The position numbers and the translations under genes are program-made. The notes below the pieces were generated by a model, which did no database searches, was not told the origin of the DNA, and saw only the letters and a program-made list of their open reading frames with translations. From the NCBI RefSeq assembly GCF_000025685.1, contig NC_013964.1, forward strand, positions 150,001 to 182,000: DNA of 32,000 nucleotides, given 5' to 3'. Each line of letters opens with the position of its first letter. The stretch's first letter is position 1. This document shows, in pieces, positions 21,961 to 23,601 of the stretch. The DNA is from Haloferax volcanii DS2 (lineage in GTDB: Archaea; Halobacteriota; Halobacteria; Halobacteriales; Haloferacaceae).

Positions 21961-23601
21961 TTATTCGTGATCTTTTGGTTTAGTCGCTTCCGCGCTCCCC
22001 TGTTCAGAAATGTCAACAGCTTCGCTTGCCGAGGCAGCCTGTCTTTTCTCTTTCACTCGTTGTTCAATCGACGCCTGCATCTCACGCATAAATCCGTCCA
22101 CCGTGTTACCCATGAGGATGACCGGTCGGCCATCGGTGAACAGTTCAGTTAGAACCTGCTCCGGGTCCGCATTTTGACTGTGGCACTTGGTTGGAACATC
22201 GACGTTTTCGGCGAATGCGCGTGTGTTAGCCCCACCGATGTGAGCTTCATCGATTAACTCTCGCTCGAATAGCAACTCGATATATTGAGCAAATGACGCT
22301 GTACGCCCCCGCCGGTCTCTTCGGAGGTACACGAACGGGGTGATACATTCGTCATCGACGAGCACCCGTCGAACCATCTCAGTACTTTCGACGTCGTTCA
22401 CCTCGGCAGCGTTGAAGATGAGTCCGTCTTCAAGTTCTATCCACGTTGGTTGGATCGCACTGAGGAACGATTCGATCTCCTCGGCTGGAAGTGACGGTTC
22501 GCCAACAACATCTAACACCGCATTGACTGCGTGGATCGTTTCAGAACCGATTAGCCCTTCGTGTTCGTCGGGAATATCAACCTGCTCGATAGTCCCTCCG
22601 CGGCGTTCGATCTCTTTTTGCATATATTCGTGCAACACCGGGTGTTGCTCGCCGCTCACAACGTGTGTTCCCGCTGGGACCGACCGCGCAAACGAACGTG
22701 CAAGGTCTGTCCTGGTCTTTCCAAGGGTATCTGTGTGGTCCTGACGGACGTTTGTCAACACGATGATGTCCGGGTTGGTCAGACGCTGATTGAACAGCCG
22801 GGTCGTATACTCTGTAATCCCCTGATTCTCGAAGATAGCGATGTCGTCTGGCTCGTACGCATCGAGTTCGGGGACGAACTCAGCGATGAGACTGATATTC
22901 TCGTAGAGCGTCGTTCGAGGCCCCCGTCGTTCGATAGGATGGACCTCGCCGTTGTGGATCAGTAGTGGATGGTTGCCGGTGATCTTCGTGAGCGTGTCGT
23001 ACCCTCGGCGGTTGAAGACGTCGTCGAGCCGTTGGGTGGTTGAGGACTTACCGCGAGTCCCCGAGACGACAATCTGGGTATCGATCTGATCGAGGACCTT
23101 ACGATGTCGAATACCTCTCGTTGCTTCACTAACCAGCCCTGTTAAACTCGACGAGCCGACTTCGATTGGCTTCGGGCCAGTCTTCCACTCGTACTCTGCC
23201 CCAACCAAGAACATCGGCAGCGCCCCCGCCGCATAGTCGAGGAACTGGTCCGCCGCGGACTGTGCTGCCATTTCCGTCGGGAAGCGATCGGCACTATGTC
23301 CCAGTACCCCGTTTGCAGTTTGGAGCCGCCAGACCCAGTTGTTTCGTTCCTCCGGAAGCTCTCCTGACGGTGTGGCCTCTTGTTCGACGATTATGTCGGG
23401 CGCGTCGACATCGGTGTCTGGGAAGGACTCTTCGTTCCCCGATAGTTCTGCAACAGCGGCGCGAACAATGTCAATTGCATCGCGTGCTGCTCGGGATGTG
23501 TCGTAGTGGCGGCTGCCGGTTGCTAGTACCTCCGCTGGGCCCCTAAGACGCCACGACCACCCGAACCCACGGCCGTAGATCTCGAAGGCAGTCCGACTCA
23601 T
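21961..23601 (-). CDS. CapB/PgsB-like Mur-family amide ligase with an N-terminal tandem DUF1508 (YegP-like) extension
   Basis: Residues from about 170 to the end: P-loop VVSGTRGKSSTTQRL, then FENQGITEYT, IIVLTNVRQDHTDTLGKT, FNAAEVNDVEST and YLRRDRRGRTASFAQ. As I recall it, these are collinear with Bacillus PgsB (NGIRGKSTVTRL, VNVLEDHMDVMGPT, GFAANDASST, NCRADRVDRTQQFA). Residues 1-135 hold two YegP-like repeats (FEIYGRGFGWSWRLRGPAEVLATGSRHYDTSRAARDAIDIVRAA and WVWRLQTANGVLGHSADRFPTEMAAQSAADQFLDYA). The start ATG overlaps the upstream gene's TGA (ATGA at 23598-23601). Confidence 0.75.
   Translation of the reverse strand: MSRTAFEIYGRGFGWSWRLRGPAEVLATGSRHYDTSRAARDAIDIVRAAVAELSGNEESFPDTDVDAPDIIVEQEATPSGELPEERNNWVWRLQTANGVLGHSADRFPTEMAAQSAADQFLDYAAGALPMFLVGAEYEWKTGPKPIEVGSSSLTGLVSEATRGIRHRKVLDQIDTQIVVSGTRGKSSTTQRLDDVFNRRGYDTLTKITGNHPLLIHNGEVHPIERRGPRTTLYENISLIAEFVPELDAYEPDDIAIFENQGITEYTTRLFNQRLTNPDIIVLTNVRQDHTDTLGKTRTDLARSFARSVPAGTHVVSGEQHPVLHEYMQKEIERRGGTIEQVDIPDEHEGLIGSETIHAVNAVLDVVGEPSLPAEEIESFLSAIQPTWIELEDGLIFNAAEVNDVESTEMVRRVLVDDECITPFVYLRRDRRGRTASFAQYIELLFERELIDEAHIGGANTRAFAENVDVPTKCHSQNADPEQVLTELFTDGRPVILMGNTVDGFMREMQASIEQRVKEKRQAASASEAVDISEQGSAEATKPKDHE

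What the first reader, a model, noticed from the sequence alone, without database searches (positions are those of the whole stretch)
23197..23601. Tandem DUF1508 (YegP-like) repeats fused to the N-terminus of the CapB-like ligase in place of a membrane anchor
Seen in sequence: residues 4-50 (FEIYGRGFGWSWRLRGPAEVLATGSRHYDTSRAARDAIDIVRAAV) and 88-125 (WVWRLQTANGVLGHSADRFPTEMAAQSAADQFLDYA) follow the YegP pattern, namely an aromatic-x-aromatic-R-L beta-hairpin, then a short segment, then an SxxxAxxxI helix. The two repeats are separated by an acidic linker. Bacterial PgsB/CapB begins instead with a hydrophobic transmembrane helix, as I recall. DUF1508 has no established function. A fusion to a polymer-forming ligase would provide functional context, for example substrate or product binding or docking to the CapC-like partner. 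I am not aware of this domain combination being described.
Basis: partly seen in the sequence, partly recalled or inferred. Interest (0 to 1): 0.65.

Follow-up and report, generated by a model that had tools for sequence, protein, structure and literature searches.

The report
YegP-like double domain on archaeal CapB ligase
The first 135 residues of this haloarchaeal CapB/PgsB-like polymer ligase form a two-repeat YegP (DUF1508) module; it is conserved and under selection, but it is an add-on to an enzyme clade that lacks the bacterial membrane helix anyway, not a replacement for that helix, and its role is still inferred.

Summary
Window 23197-23601 (minus strand) encodes residues 1-135 of a 546-aa protein. 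These residues fold as two diverged DUF1508/UPF0339 repeats. Single-sequence Pfam support is borderline, but family profiles, repeat-versus-repeat comparison and a confident AlphaFold model matching E. coli YegP all agree.

The start codon is secure. It overlaps the capC stop as ATGA, an in-frame stop lies one codon upstream, and dN/dS of the N-terminal region is 0.10-0.16.

The body of the protein is a Mur/FolC-fold ligase whose best family match is PgsB, below the equivalog cutoff. It always sits next to a double-length CapC.

The whole archaeal clade lacks the bacterial N-terminal transmembrane helix, including close relatives with no DUF1508 such as that of Natrialba aegyptia, a known L-PGA producer. 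So the module is accessory and not an anchor substitute.

In a rough tree the N-terminal fusion has a single origin and extends to Methanosarcinales. Canonical DUF1508 pairs were fused independently to the C-terminus of other CapB relatives. Still others carry a receiver domain or DUF7504 there.

My best reading is a non-catalytic interaction or regulatory module. The mechanism remains inferred. I found no paper describing this domain combination.

The parts
21961..23601 (-). Whole gene: a 546-aa protein made of a tandem DUF1508 module and a CapB/PgsB-like Mur-fold ligase
   Evidence: ORF. It is 99% identical to a Haloferax volcanii 'Mur ligase family protein'. The AlphaFold2 full-length model has pLDDT 85.3 and pTM 0.85.
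23443..23592 (-). DUF1508 repeat 1 (residues 4-53): strands 5-11, 14-20 and 25-29, helix 36-53. W15, W17, R40 and R47 are invariant.
   Evidence: Pfam DUF1508 covers residues 15-50. The repeat 1 profile hits 6Q2Z at E 5e-5.
23404..23442 (-). Acidic inter-repeat linker (residues 54-66, net charge -5)
   Evidence: pLDDT stays around 90, so it is modelled as part of a compact unit.
23224..23403 (-). DUF1508 repeat 2 (residues 67-126): strands 69-74, 89-95 and 98-103, helix 110-124/126, invariant W91. A subclade-specific insertion loop spans residues 75-88 (23338-23379).
   Evidence: The repeat 2 profile hits 6Q2Z at E 3e-4. hhalign against repeat 1 gives 98% probability. The alignment shows the insertion is absent from more distant homologues.
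23077..23223 (-). Connector (residues 127-175): conserved strand 128-133 (G126, P129, G134), low-confidence stretch 133-155, then helix 156-170 leading into the ligase. This is the positional equivalent of the bacterial PgsB transmembrane and pre-P-loop segment.
   Evidence: pLDDT is 52-58 for residues 131-160. TIGR04012 profile position 18 aligns to residue 163. Homologues without DUF1508 begin within this segment.
21961..23076 (-). Mur/FolC-fold ATP-dependent amide ligase body (residues 176-546, plus stop codon). The P-loop is G181-S187 and the NxRxDH motif is at 284-289.
   Evidence: TIGR04012 PgsB is the best NCBIfam hit at 86 bits, below the cutoff of 222.7. Mur_ligase_M scores 23.5 bits. 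Foldseek matches FolC/FPGS, MurT and Mur ligases at E about 1e-12.
23598..24764 (-). Upstream partner gene: a double-length CapC-like membrane protein (388 aa, two CapC domains). Its stop codon overlaps the capB start as ATGA.
   Evidence: Pfam Caps_synth_CapC scores 95.8 bits in 2 stretches. The overlap is read from the sequence. A capC ORF lies directly upstream of capB in nearly all of the ~50 loci that contain that region, usually with the same 4-nt overlap.
24818..25231 (-). Stand-alone response-regulator receiver gene, same strand, directly upstream of capC
   Evidence: Pfam Response_reg scores 102.5 bits. It is conserved upstream of capC only in the closest clade: L001-L019, L042 and L057.
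25343..29248 (+). Divergently transcribed large (1301-aa) ORF that reads as a sensor histidine kinase. It belongs to the same ~8-kb conserved block.
   Evidence: ORF translation (read by eye as receiver, PAS-type repeats and histidine-kinase core; not scanned against Pfam). It forms a conserved-neighbour cluster in 28 loci. The block 21301-29310 is 89-96% nt identical in six other genera.

Best explanation
Residues 1-135 are a genuine, translated, diverged tandem DUF1508 (YegP/UPF0339) module. The two beta-beta-beta-alpha repeats pack into one compact pseudo-dimer like E. coli YegP.

The module sits at the N-terminus of an archaeal CapB/PgsB-type ATP-dependent amide ligase. That ligase works with a double-length CapC membrane partner and most likely makes a poly-gamma-glutamate-type polymer.

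The module is non-catalytic and accessory. The archaeal clade has no transmembrane helix whether or not DUF1508 is present. DUF1508-less relatives exist, including in a PGA producer.

I infer that it acts as a protein-interaction or regulatory adaptor held against the ligase. It would tune ligase activity or assembly, rather than anchor the enzyme in the membrane or bind substrate by charge.

What is shown: the identity of the repeats, their fold, translation, conservation, single-origin N-terminal fusion in a rough tree, and independent C-terminal fusions. What is inferred: the product (PGA-like) and the adaptor/regulatory role.
For: Identity and fold:
- The repeat profiles hit the solved DUF1508 protein 6Q2Z at E 5e-5 and 3e-4.
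- The two repeats match each other with 98% probability.
- The AlphaFold2 model has pLDDT 92.4, and its only significant structural matches are YegP 2K8E and 2K49 over the whole tandem.

Translation:
- The start overlaps the capC stop as ATGA, and the same 4-nt overlap recurs in most loci.
- An in-frame stop lies one codon upstream of the ATG.
- dN/dS of codons 1-135 is 0.10-0.16, against 0.06-0.11 for the ligase.

Accessory rather than anchor:
- The closest roughly 60 representatives have no hydrophobic N-terminus, with or without DUF1508. Bacterial-type representatives do have one.
- DUF1508-less capC-capB loci occur in Natrialba aegyptia DSM 13077 and its relatives.
- Those loci are followed by a protein with a Gamma_PGA_hydro domain.

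Functional coupling of DUF1508 to this ligase:
- In a rough NJ tree the N-terminal fusion clade is monophyletic and includes Methanosarcinales.
- Canonical DUF1508 pairs (65 and 63 bits) are fused to the C-terminus of P0125 and P0122, in a different part of the tree.

Regulatory flavour:
- Paralogous CapBs carry a receiver domain (P0135) or DUF7504 (P0134, P0149) at the C-terminus.
- This locus has a stand-alone receiver gene and a large adjacent ORF that reads as a sensor kinase.
- In the literature, tandem DUF1508 occupies accessory or sensor N-terminal positions in Ubl and Menshen NsnA proteins.

Fixed position on the ligase:
- The full-length pTM of 0.85 exceeds the ceiling of about 0.71 expected if about 160 residues floated freely. 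This is my inference.
Against: - No direct evidence of any binding partner.
- I could not obtain model coordinates or PAE, so the contact with the ligase is inferred from pTM only.
- The receiver gene is present only in the closest clade, while N-terminal DUF1508 is much more widespread. The receiver therefore cannot be the universal partner.
- No CapC feature co-varies with DUF1508.
- DUF1508 itself has no established biochemical function.
- The NJ tree has no support values.
- PGA synthesis by this family has never been shown experimentally in any archaeon, and the PgsB equivalog cutoff is not met.
Confidence: 0.4

Rival explanations
1. Substitute for the membrane anchor. The DUF1508 pair replaces the bacterial PgsB transmembrane helix by docking the soluble ligase onto the cytoplasmic face of CapC or the membrane.
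For: In bacteria the PgsB N-terminal helix is needed for membrane localisation and PGA production (PgsB-delta21, PMC7490850). This protein lacks such a helix. capC and capB are translationally coupled.
Against: Relatives with neither a helix nor DUF1508 keep the same capC-capB pairing, including in the PGA producer Natrialba aegyptia. The CapC C-terminal tail and loops are conserved regardless of whether DUF1508 is present. In other clades the DUF1508 pair sits at the C-terminus on a long linker. The positional equivalent of the helix is the connector at residues 141-162, not the repeats.
Confidence: 0.2
2. Holder of the polymer or acceptor. The pseudo-dimer binds the growing polyanionic chain, or its acceptor end, and raises processivity. 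This would be analogous to the acceptor-binding N-terminal domain of Mur ligases or to sPC4/Whirly-like binders of single-stranded polyanions.
For: The module occupies the N-terminal position where MurC-F carry their substrate-binding domain (established knowledge of the family; fold matches). The Menshen study likens tandem DUF1508 to sPC4/Whirly single-stranded nucleic-acid binders (PMC12065111). R18, R40 and R47 are conserved in repeat 1.
Against: The module is as acidic per residue (-0.058 and -0.045) as the ligase (-0.052). Repeat 2 has almost no conserved basic residues. R40 and R47 line up with the conserved Lys positions of HVO_2922 in the alignment, so they look like general DUF1508 features rather than CapB-specific ones. 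High intracellular salt screens electrostatic interactions (inference). The DUF1508-less enzyme clade includes a producer of >1000-kDa PGA.
Confidence: 0.2
3. The ligase is not a PGA synthetase. The CapC-CapB pair makes or attaches a different amide-linked product, such as poly-gamma-glutamine or glutamylation of an envelope component, and the DUF1508 module recognises that different acceptor.
For: The TIGR04012 score of 86 is far below the cutoff of 222.7 and covers only profile positions 18-189 of 380. No CapA/PgsA is present in the window or in 61 loci. Members occur in Methanosarcinales, which to my knowledge have not been reported to make PGA. Natronococcus occultus has a glutaminyl cell-wall polymer (cited in PMC3815933).
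Against: PgsB is the best family match and CapC is the obligate neighbour. PgsBC without PgsA makes L-rich PGA in Bacillus (PMC6029982). The family is present in Natrialba aegyptia next to a protein with a PGA-hydrolase domain.
Confidence: 0.15
4. Artefact: a chance resemblance to DUF1508, or an untranslated or mis-started region.
For: The single-sequence Pfam score is below the gathering threshold in the full-length scan, and repeat 2 gives no Pfam hit.
Against: Profile, repeat-versus-repeat and structural matches all agree. Purifying selection acts on codons 1-135. An in-frame stop lies directly upstream of the ATG, and the ATGA coupling is conserved.
Confidence: 0.02

Closest known systems
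Bacillus PgsB/CapB (poly-gamma-glutamate synthase, TIGR04012) with PgsC/CapC
   Same: It has a Mur/FolC-fold ATP-dependent amide ligase with a P-loop and NxRxDH motifs. PgsB is the best family match. It has an obligate adjacent CapC-family membrane partner. In Bacillus, PgsBC alone can make L-rich PGA (PMC6029982).
   Different: There is no N-terminal transmembrane helix and no PgsA or PgsE. The gene order is capC then capB. CapC is duplicated (~390 aa, two CapC domains). The C-terminal half is diverged, so the score of 86 is far below the cutoff of 222.7. A 135-residue tandem DUF1508 module sits at the N-terminus.
E. coli YegP (PDB 2K8E) and Shewanella SO3888 (2K49): free-standing tandem DUF1508/UPF0339 proteins
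   Same: The module has two beta-beta-beta-alpha repeats forming one pseudo-dimer. The TM-score is 0.63-0.74 over the whole tandem. Repeat 1 has the aromatic-x-aromatic-R-L strand and a helix starting with Y-x-S/T.
   Different: Here the tandem is covalently fused to an enzyme. Sequence identity is only 12-14%. Repeat 2 is strongly diverged and carries a 14-residue insertion. An extra conserved strand (128-133) follows the tandem.
Haloferax volcanii HVO_2922 (PDB 6Q2Z): single-domain UPF0339 small protein, homodimer
   Same: It is the best sequence-profile match for both repeats and comes from the same phylum. The intramolecular repeat pair here mimics its homodimer (as described in bioRxiv 2024.11.21.623966).
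   Different: HVO_2922 is a free-standing protein of about 60 aa. The N-terminal repeats here are much more diverged from it than the C-terminal DUF1508 pair of P0125, whose first repeat contains 'RWRLVHDNGNILAD' identical to HVO_2922.
Other tandem DUF1508 fusions: DUF1508-Ubl proteins of Bub operons and Menshen NsnA N-termini
   Same: A tandem DUF1508 pair is placed at the N-terminus of a larger functional protein as an accessory module. The DUF1508-Ubl proteins are monomers, consistent with a self-contained pseudo-dimer.
   Different: Those are bacterial, belong to ubiquitin-like or antiphage systems, and have different fusion partners. No ligase or polymer context was described for them.
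Haloquadratum walsbyi capC/capB annotation (Bolhuis et al. 2006, PMC1544339)
   Same: It is the same kind of haloarchaeal capC-capB pair, proposed to make a poly-gamma-glutamate capsule.
   Different: That paper reports the genes only as bacterial-type CapBCA. It says nothing about the missing transmembrane helix, the double CapC or the DUF1508 repeats.

Membership tests
DUF1508 / UPF0339 (Pfam PF07411) | Match to the Pfam HMM at the gathering score (22 bits) | tested here: inconclusive
   The full protein scores 19.0 bits (E 1.4e-3), below the threshold. Residues 1-163 alone score 23.1 bits, above it. Repeat 2 alone gives no hit. Among homologues, 12/48 repeat 1 and 2/48 repeat 2 sequences hit at E<0.01.
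DUF1508 / UPF0339 (Pfam PF07411) | Profile-level homology to experimentally solved DUF1508 proteins | tested here: met
   The repeat 1 profile hits 6Q2Z at E 5e-5, with 3BID next at E 0.096. The repeat 2 profile hits 6Q2Z at E 3e-4. Repeat 1 against repeat 2 by hhalign gives 98% probability and E 2.6e-13.
DUF1508 / UPF0339 (Pfam PF07411) | Beta-beta-beta-alpha fold per repeat, and YegP-like pseudo-dimer for a tandem pair | tested here: met
   The AlphaFold2 model has pLDDT 92.4 and shows the topology twice. Foldseek gives 2K8E at TM 0.65/0.74 and 2K49 at TM 0.63/0.71. No other hit reaches E<=1e-3. This is a predicted structure, not an experimental one.
PgsB/CapB poly-gamma-glutamate synthase (NCBIfam TIGR04012 equivalog) | Score at or above the curated equivalog cutoff (222.7 bits) over the full model | tested here: not met
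   The score is 86.3 bits. Only profile positions 18-189 of 380 are matched, at residues 163-341. It is the best-scoring NCBIfam family nevertheless.
PgsB/CapB poly-gamma-glutamate synthase (NCBIfam TIGR04012 equivalog) | N-terminal transmembrane helix, needed for localisation and activity in Bacillus PgsB (PMC7490850) | tested here: not met
   The maximum 19-residue Kyte-Doolittle mean before the P-loop is below 1 in this clade. It is 1.6-3.3 at residues 1-7 in bacterial-type representatives.
PgsB/CapB poly-gamma-glutamate synthase (NCBIfam TIGR04012 equivalog) | Adjacent, co-transcribed CapC/PgsC membrane partner | tested here: met
   Caps_synth_CapC scores 95.8 bits in the upstream ORF, with an ATGA overlap. 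A capC ORF lies directly upstream of capB in nearly all of the ~50 loci that contain that region.
PgsB/CapB poly-gamma-glutamate synthase (NCBIfam TIGR04012 equivalog) | PgsA/CapA third subunit in the operon | tested here: not met
   No CapA-like neighbour was found in the window or among conserved neighbours within 6 kb either side in 61 loci. PgsA is dispensable for L-PGA in Bacillus (PMC6029982).
PgsB/CapB poly-gamma-glutamate synthase (NCBIfam TIGR04012 equivalog) | Product is gamma-linked polyglutamate | not testable with these tools
   Support is only indirect. A family member is present in the L-PGA producer Natrialba aegyptia (L049), followed there and in related Natrialbales loci by a neighbour of the cluster whose representative (L047) carries a Gamma_PGA_hydro domain.
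Mur ligase superfamily (MurC-F, FolC/FPGS, MurT) | P-loop ATP-binding middle domain plus C-terminal domain fold | tested here: met
   Pfam Mur_ligase_M scores 23.5 bits against a gathering score of 24, which is borderline. Many homologues pass it. Foldseek matches FolC, FPGS, MurT and MurE/F at E 1e-12 to 1e-8 over 410-470 columns. G181, R183, G184, K185 and S187 of the P-loop are invariant, as are N284, R286 and H289 of the NxRxDH motif.

The most novel reading that the evidence does not exclude
DUF1508/YegP domains are dedicated partners of poly-gamma-glutamate-type amide ligases. The ancient N-terminal fusion, and the independent recent C-terminal fusion of HVO_2922-like repeats to CapB relatives, would then be a Rosetta-stone signal. 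Under this reading, free-standing stress-induced YegP/HVO_2922 proteins regulate or bind such polymer synthetases or their polyanionic products. That would give this widespread domain of unknown function its first biochemical context.
Probability: 0.15. Interest if true: 0.7.

Novelty: new variant of a known kind. Interest (0 to 1): 0.45.

Why it matters
DUF1508/YegP is a widespread, stress-induced family. Structures have been solved for more than fifteen years, yet no function is known. A conserved, selected and recurrent fusion to one specific enzyme family is one of the few concrete handles on what it does.

The finding also sharpens the picture of archaeal poly-gamma-glutamate synthesis. 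Its genes have never been characterised, although Natrialba L-PGA is of biotechnological interest. The archaeal system appears to be a minimal pair: a doubled CapC and a soluble CapB without a transmembrane helix. Interchangeable accessory modules are added to CapB, namely DUF1508 pairs, a receiver domain or DUF7504.

Haloferax volcanii is genetically tractable, so truncation and pull-down experiments are feasible.

Tried and rejected
1. Single-sequence searches were too weak to decide. phmmer of residues 1-163 against PDB gave only 3BID at E 2.1 and a spurious hit. I moved to family profiles.
2. I looked for a split, free-standing DUF1508 gene near DUF1508-less capB loci, as a Rosetta-stone test in cis. 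HMMs of repeat 1, repeat 2 and canonical repeats found none within 6 kb either side. There is none elsewhere in the window either.
3. I looked for a CapC feature that co-varies with DUF1508. The conserved C-terminal tail 'VLSASVLSGGD' is present both with and without DUF1508 and is missing only in Natrialbales. I rejected it as evidence for docking.
4. I considered P0064 (908 aa) as a natural CapC-CapB fusion that would fix the topology. The junction is Arg-rich and looks like out-of-frame translation. I treat it as a frameshift artefact.
5. I tested whether the module is basic, as a polyanion binder might be. It is as acidic as the ligase.
6. Foldseek of the full-length model was dominated by the ligase and did not report DUF1508. 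A separate N-terminal model was needed.
7. Literature searches for PgsB/PgsC structural models or archaeal PGA synthetase genes found nothing specific.
8. I could not inspect model coordinates or PAE, so contacts between the N-module and the ligase were not measured.
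Full report
WHAT IS THERE

The finding lies at the 5' end of a 546-codon ORF on the minus strand, window 21961..23601. Coordinates 23197..23601 encode residues 1-135. The protein is 99% identical to a Haloferax volcanii 'Mur ligase family protein'. It has more than 110 full-length homologues, almost all from Halobacteria, with lengths around 520-560 aa.

The start codon is secure for four reasons:
- The ATG at 23601-23599 overlaps the TGA of the upstream gene as ATGA.
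- The same 4-nt overlap recurs in most related loci.
- An in-frame stop lies one codon upstream, so no longer ORF is possible.
- Codons 1-135 evolve under purifying selection as strong as the enzyme body. dN/dS is 0.10-0.16 against 0.06-0.11 in three comparisons at 86-93% protein identity.

ARE THE REPEATS DUF1508?

With the single sequence the answer is borderline. Pfam DUF1508 gives 19.0 bits, below the gathering score of 22, when the whole protein is scanned. It gives 23.1 bits when residues 1-163 are scanned alone. In both cases only repeat 1 is covered, and repeat 2 scanned alone gives nothing. NCBIfam gives a weak match to the HVO_2922 family at E 1.3e-3.

At family level the answer is clear:
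- I aligned 48 non-redundant homologues and built separate profiles of repeat 1 (A1) and repeat 2 (A2).
- Against all PDB sequences, A1 finds the solved UPF0339 protein HVO_2922 (6Q2Z) at E 5e-5, followed by NMB1088 (3BID). A2 finds 6Q2Z at E 3e-4. Everything else has E>0.7.
- A1 against A2 by hhalign gives 98% probability and E 2.6e-13.
- 12 of 48 repeat 1 sequences and 2 of 48 repeat 2 sequences reach Pfam DUF1508 on their own at E<0.01.

The structure prediction agrees. An AlphaFold2 model of residues 1-136 has pLDDT 92.4 and pTM 0.86. It shows beta-beta-beta-alpha twice: strands 5-11, 14-20 and 25-29 with helix 36-53, then strands 69-74, 89-95 and 98-103 with helix 110-126. Its only Foldseek PDB matches with E<=1e-3 are the two solved tandem DUF1508 proteins. 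These are E. coli YegP (2K8E, TM 0.65/0.74 over 138 columns) and SO3888 (2K49, TM 0.63/0.71).

One correction is needed. Repeat 2 begins at about residue 67 with its own first strand. In this subclade it carries a 14-residue acidic insertion (residues 75-88) between strands 1 and 2. More distant homologues read '...RIRIRGDESxxIFEWxL...' without this insertion. The real inter-repeat linker is residues 54-66.

THE ENZYME AND ITS PARTNER

Residues 176-546 form a Mur/FolC-fold ligase.
- The best NCBIfam match is PgsB (TIGR04012) at 86 bits. This is far below the equivalog cutoff of 222.7 and covers only profile positions 18-189.
- Pfam Mur_ligase_M scores 23.5 bits.
- The full-length AlphaFold2 model has pLDDT 85.3 and pTM 0.85. 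It matches FolC/FPGS, MurT and MurC-F structures at E 1e-12 to 1e-8.
- Most residues of the P-loop and of the NxRxDH motif are invariant in 80 sequences.

The upstream gene (23598..24764) encodes a 388-aa membrane protein with two CapC domains. In 61 related loci from reference genomes, a capC ORF of about 390 aa lies directly upstream of capB in nearly every locus that contains that region, usually with the same 4-nt overlap. No CapA/PgsA is found in the window or among the conserved neighbours.

PGA synthesis is inferred, not shown. The inference rests on four points:
- The family resemblance to PgsB.
- The obligate CapC partner.
- Published evidence that PgsBC without PgsA makes L-rich PGA in Bacillus (PMC6029982).
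- Two observations made here. The family is present in Natrialba aegyptia DSM 13077, which produces L-PGA (L049; PMC3815933). In Natrialbales loci, capB is followed by a conserved protein; the representative I scanned (L047) carries a Gamma_PGA_hydro domain.

IS THE MODULE 'IN PLACE OF A MEMBRANE ANCHOR'?

Only loosely. I searched 1.84 billion representative proteins with the ligase part alone, residues 141-546. I then scored the region before the P-loop for hydrophobicity and for DUF1508-like repeats.

- Bacterial-type representatives (E about 1e-19 to 1e-13) nearly all have a hydrophobic stretch at residues 1-7, with a 19-residue Kyte-Doolittle mean of 1.6-3.3. This matches the published PgsB helix, whose deletion abolishes membrane localisation and PGA production (PMC7490850).
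- The closer representatives (E<1e-30) have no such stretch at all.
- Within that helix-less clade, some have the N-terminal DUF1508 pair: P0070, P0114, P0121, P0122, P0124 and P0161.
- Many have only a short soluble N-terminus of 20-50 residues: P0123, P0126, P0127 and P0129-P0136, plus Natrialba, Natronorubrum, Halostagnicola, Halorubrum aidingense and Natronomonas sp. EA1.

Loss of the helix is therefore a clade property. It is not compensated specifically by DUF1508.

The stretch that corresponds in position to the bacterial helix is the connector at residues ~141-162, just before the helix leading to the P-loop. TIGR04012 position 18 aligns to residue 163. The DUF1508-less proteins start within this stretch.

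An alignment of CapC partners shows no segment that tracks DUF1508. The conserved C-terminal tail 'VLSASVLSGGD' is present in loci with and without the module and is lost only in Natrialbales.

EVOLUTIONARY PATTERN

A rough neighbour-joining tree of the ligase domain, without support values, places all proteins with N-terminal DUF1508 in one clade. That clade also contains Methanosarcinales members: Methanohalophilus, Methanosarcina and a Methanosarcinaceae MAG.

Separately, P0125 has no N-terminal repeats but carries two canonical DUF1508 repeats at its C-terminus (Pfam 64.9 bits). P0122 has both the diverged N-terminal pair and a canonical C-terminal pair (63.4 bits). The first C-terminal repeat of P0125 contains 'RWRLVHDNGNILAD', identical to HVO_2922. 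In the tree, P0125 sits in a DUF1508-less clade. The same domain has therefore been fused to this ligase at least twice, at opposite ends. That argues for a real functional link.

Other relatives carry a response-regulator receiver (P0135) or DUF7504 (P0134, P0149) at the C-terminus. In the window, a stand-alone receiver gene lies directly upstream of capC. A large divergent ORF that reads as a sensor kinase lies next to it. This receiver arrangement is conserved only in the closest clade.

HOW IT MOST LIKELY WORKS

Shown: the module is a self-contained YegP-like pseudo-dimer. It is translated, conserved and non-catalytic. It is dispensable for the basic capC-capB arrangement.

Inferred: it is held in a defined position relative to the ligase. 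The full-length pTM of 0.85 exceeds the ceiling of about 0.71 expected if about 160 residues were placed at random. I had no coordinates or PAE to confirm this.

I judge a protein-interaction or regulatory adaptor role most likely (confidence about 0.4). The reasons are:
- The ligase family swaps in regulatory modules, a receiver or DUF7504, at its termini.
- The DUF1508 pair works from either terminus.
- Elsewhere, tandem DUF1508 occupies accessory or sensor N-terminal positions in Ubl and Menshen NsnA proteins.
- Free-standing members are stress-induced.
- PGA is described as a protectant against dehydration in extremely saline conditions (PMC3815933).

The rivals are docking to CapC or the membrane (0.2) and holding the polyanionic chain (0.2). 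The second is weakened by composition. The module is as acidic as the ligase, at -0.058 and -0.045 net charge per residue against -0.052. Repeat 2 also has almost no conserved basic residues. A further rival concerns the product, which may not be PGA (0.15).

COMPARISON WITH WHAT IS KNOWN, AND NOVELTY

Haloarchaeal capC and capB were noted in the Haloquadratum walsbyi genome paper of 2006 as 'bacterial-type CapBCA' (PMC1544339).

Automated pipelines already detect the DUF1508 signal in some members. JGI names P0027 'uncharacterized protein YegP (UPF0339 family)'. Five clusters (P0052, P0068, P0070, P0087, P0100) carry a precomputed PF07411 hit.

In the searchable literature only five papers mention DUF1508 and five mention UPF0339. 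None links either to Mur, PgsB or CapB ligases. No paper describes the archaeal PGA synthetase genes.

I file this as a new variant of a known kind: a known enzyme family with an undescribed accessory-domain architecture. It is not a categorically new system. Interest is moderate at 0.45. It offers a tractable handle on a long-standing domain of unknown function and on archaeal PGA synthesis, but the mechanism is unresolved and the fusion is implicit in databases.

LIMITS

- Structures are predictions.
- The tree is distance-based without support values.
- Product chemistry and any binding partner are untested.
- The DUF1508-less state of some loci was judged from ORFs within fetched loci only.

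Noticed in passing
window 21301-29310 (also L001-L005, L008, L009): An ~8-kb block carrying the kinase-like ORF, the receiver gene, capC and capB is 89-96% nt identical in six other genera: Salarchaeum japonicum (plasmid p2), Haloarchaeobius baliensis, Haloferax gibbonsii, Halopenitus persicus, Halohasta salina and a Halorutilales archaeon. CapB is 93-99% identical at protein level. In the window the block is flanked by transposase genes. This looks like a recently mobile cassette.
   Followed up: partly
P0125, P0122 (representative proteins): CapB relatives carry two canonical DUF1508 repeats at the C-terminus (Pfam 65 and 63 bits). The first such repeat of P0125 contains 'RWRLVHDNGNILAD', identical to HVO_2922. 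This is an independent fusion of the same domain to the other end of the ligase.
   Followed up: yes
P0135, P0134, P0149: DUF1508-less CapB relatives are fused at the C-terminus to a response-regulator receiver (P0135) or to DUF7504 (P0134, P0149). This suggests the ligase is a hub for regulatory add-ons.
   Followed up: partly
L047 7229-8461; same cluster in L031, L039, L043-L049: In Natrialbales loci, including Natrialba aegyptia and N. taiwanensis, capB is followed by a conserved ~410-aa protein. The representative scanned (L047) has a Gamma_PGA_hydro (PF05908) domain. The neighbour supports a PGA-related role for the archaeal capCB pair.
   Followed up: partly
L036, L037, L053, L058, L040, L050, L051: Methanosarcinales genomes (Methanohalophilus, Methanosarcina, Methanococcoides) carry capC-capB pairs. 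In L036, L037, L053 and L058 the full CapB with the N-terminal DUF1508-type extension is present; repeat 1 is recognisable and repeat 2 is too diverged for my profile. They nest inside the haloarchaeal clade in a rough tree, which hints at inter-order transfer.
   Followed up: partly
L042 (889-3768) and L057 (6001-7582), Halobellus marinus plasmid unnamed2: Two copies of the receiver-capC-capB cassette lie on one plasmid. In both, capB is split into two overlapping ORFs, so they are apparent frameshift pseudogenes or sequencing errors.
   Followed up: no
P0064 (908 aa): This apparent CapC-CapB fusion protein has an Arg-rich, low-complexity junction that looks like out-of-frame translation of the capC 3' half. 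It is probably a frameshift artefact, not a natural fusion.
   Followed up: partly
window 20084-21881 (-) and 29511-31322 (-): Transposase genes flank the cassette. Two overlapping ORFs (207 aa with DUF772, then 397 aa with no Pfam hit) directly downstream of capB look like one IS transposase split by a frameshift. A 603-aa DDE_Tnp_1 transposase lies beyond the kinase-like ORF.
   Followed up: no
window 21961-22040 (C-terminal tail of CapB): The window protein (546 aa) has an acidic tail that begins after residue 517 ('...KEKRQAASASEAVDISEQGSAEATKPKDHE'). The tail is absent from the 520-aa H. volcanii and Natrinema versions (P0001, P0005), which end at '...KKKR' and '...KAPR'. The C-terminus is variable near the IS junction.
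   Followed up: no
window 15739-17340 (+), 18852-19745 (+): Unrelated neighbours: an MCRA-family (oleate-hydratase-like) protein at 673 bits, and a NikR-like regulator (RHH plus NikR_C) with an N-terminal extension of about 150 residues if the listed TTG start is real.
   Followed up: no
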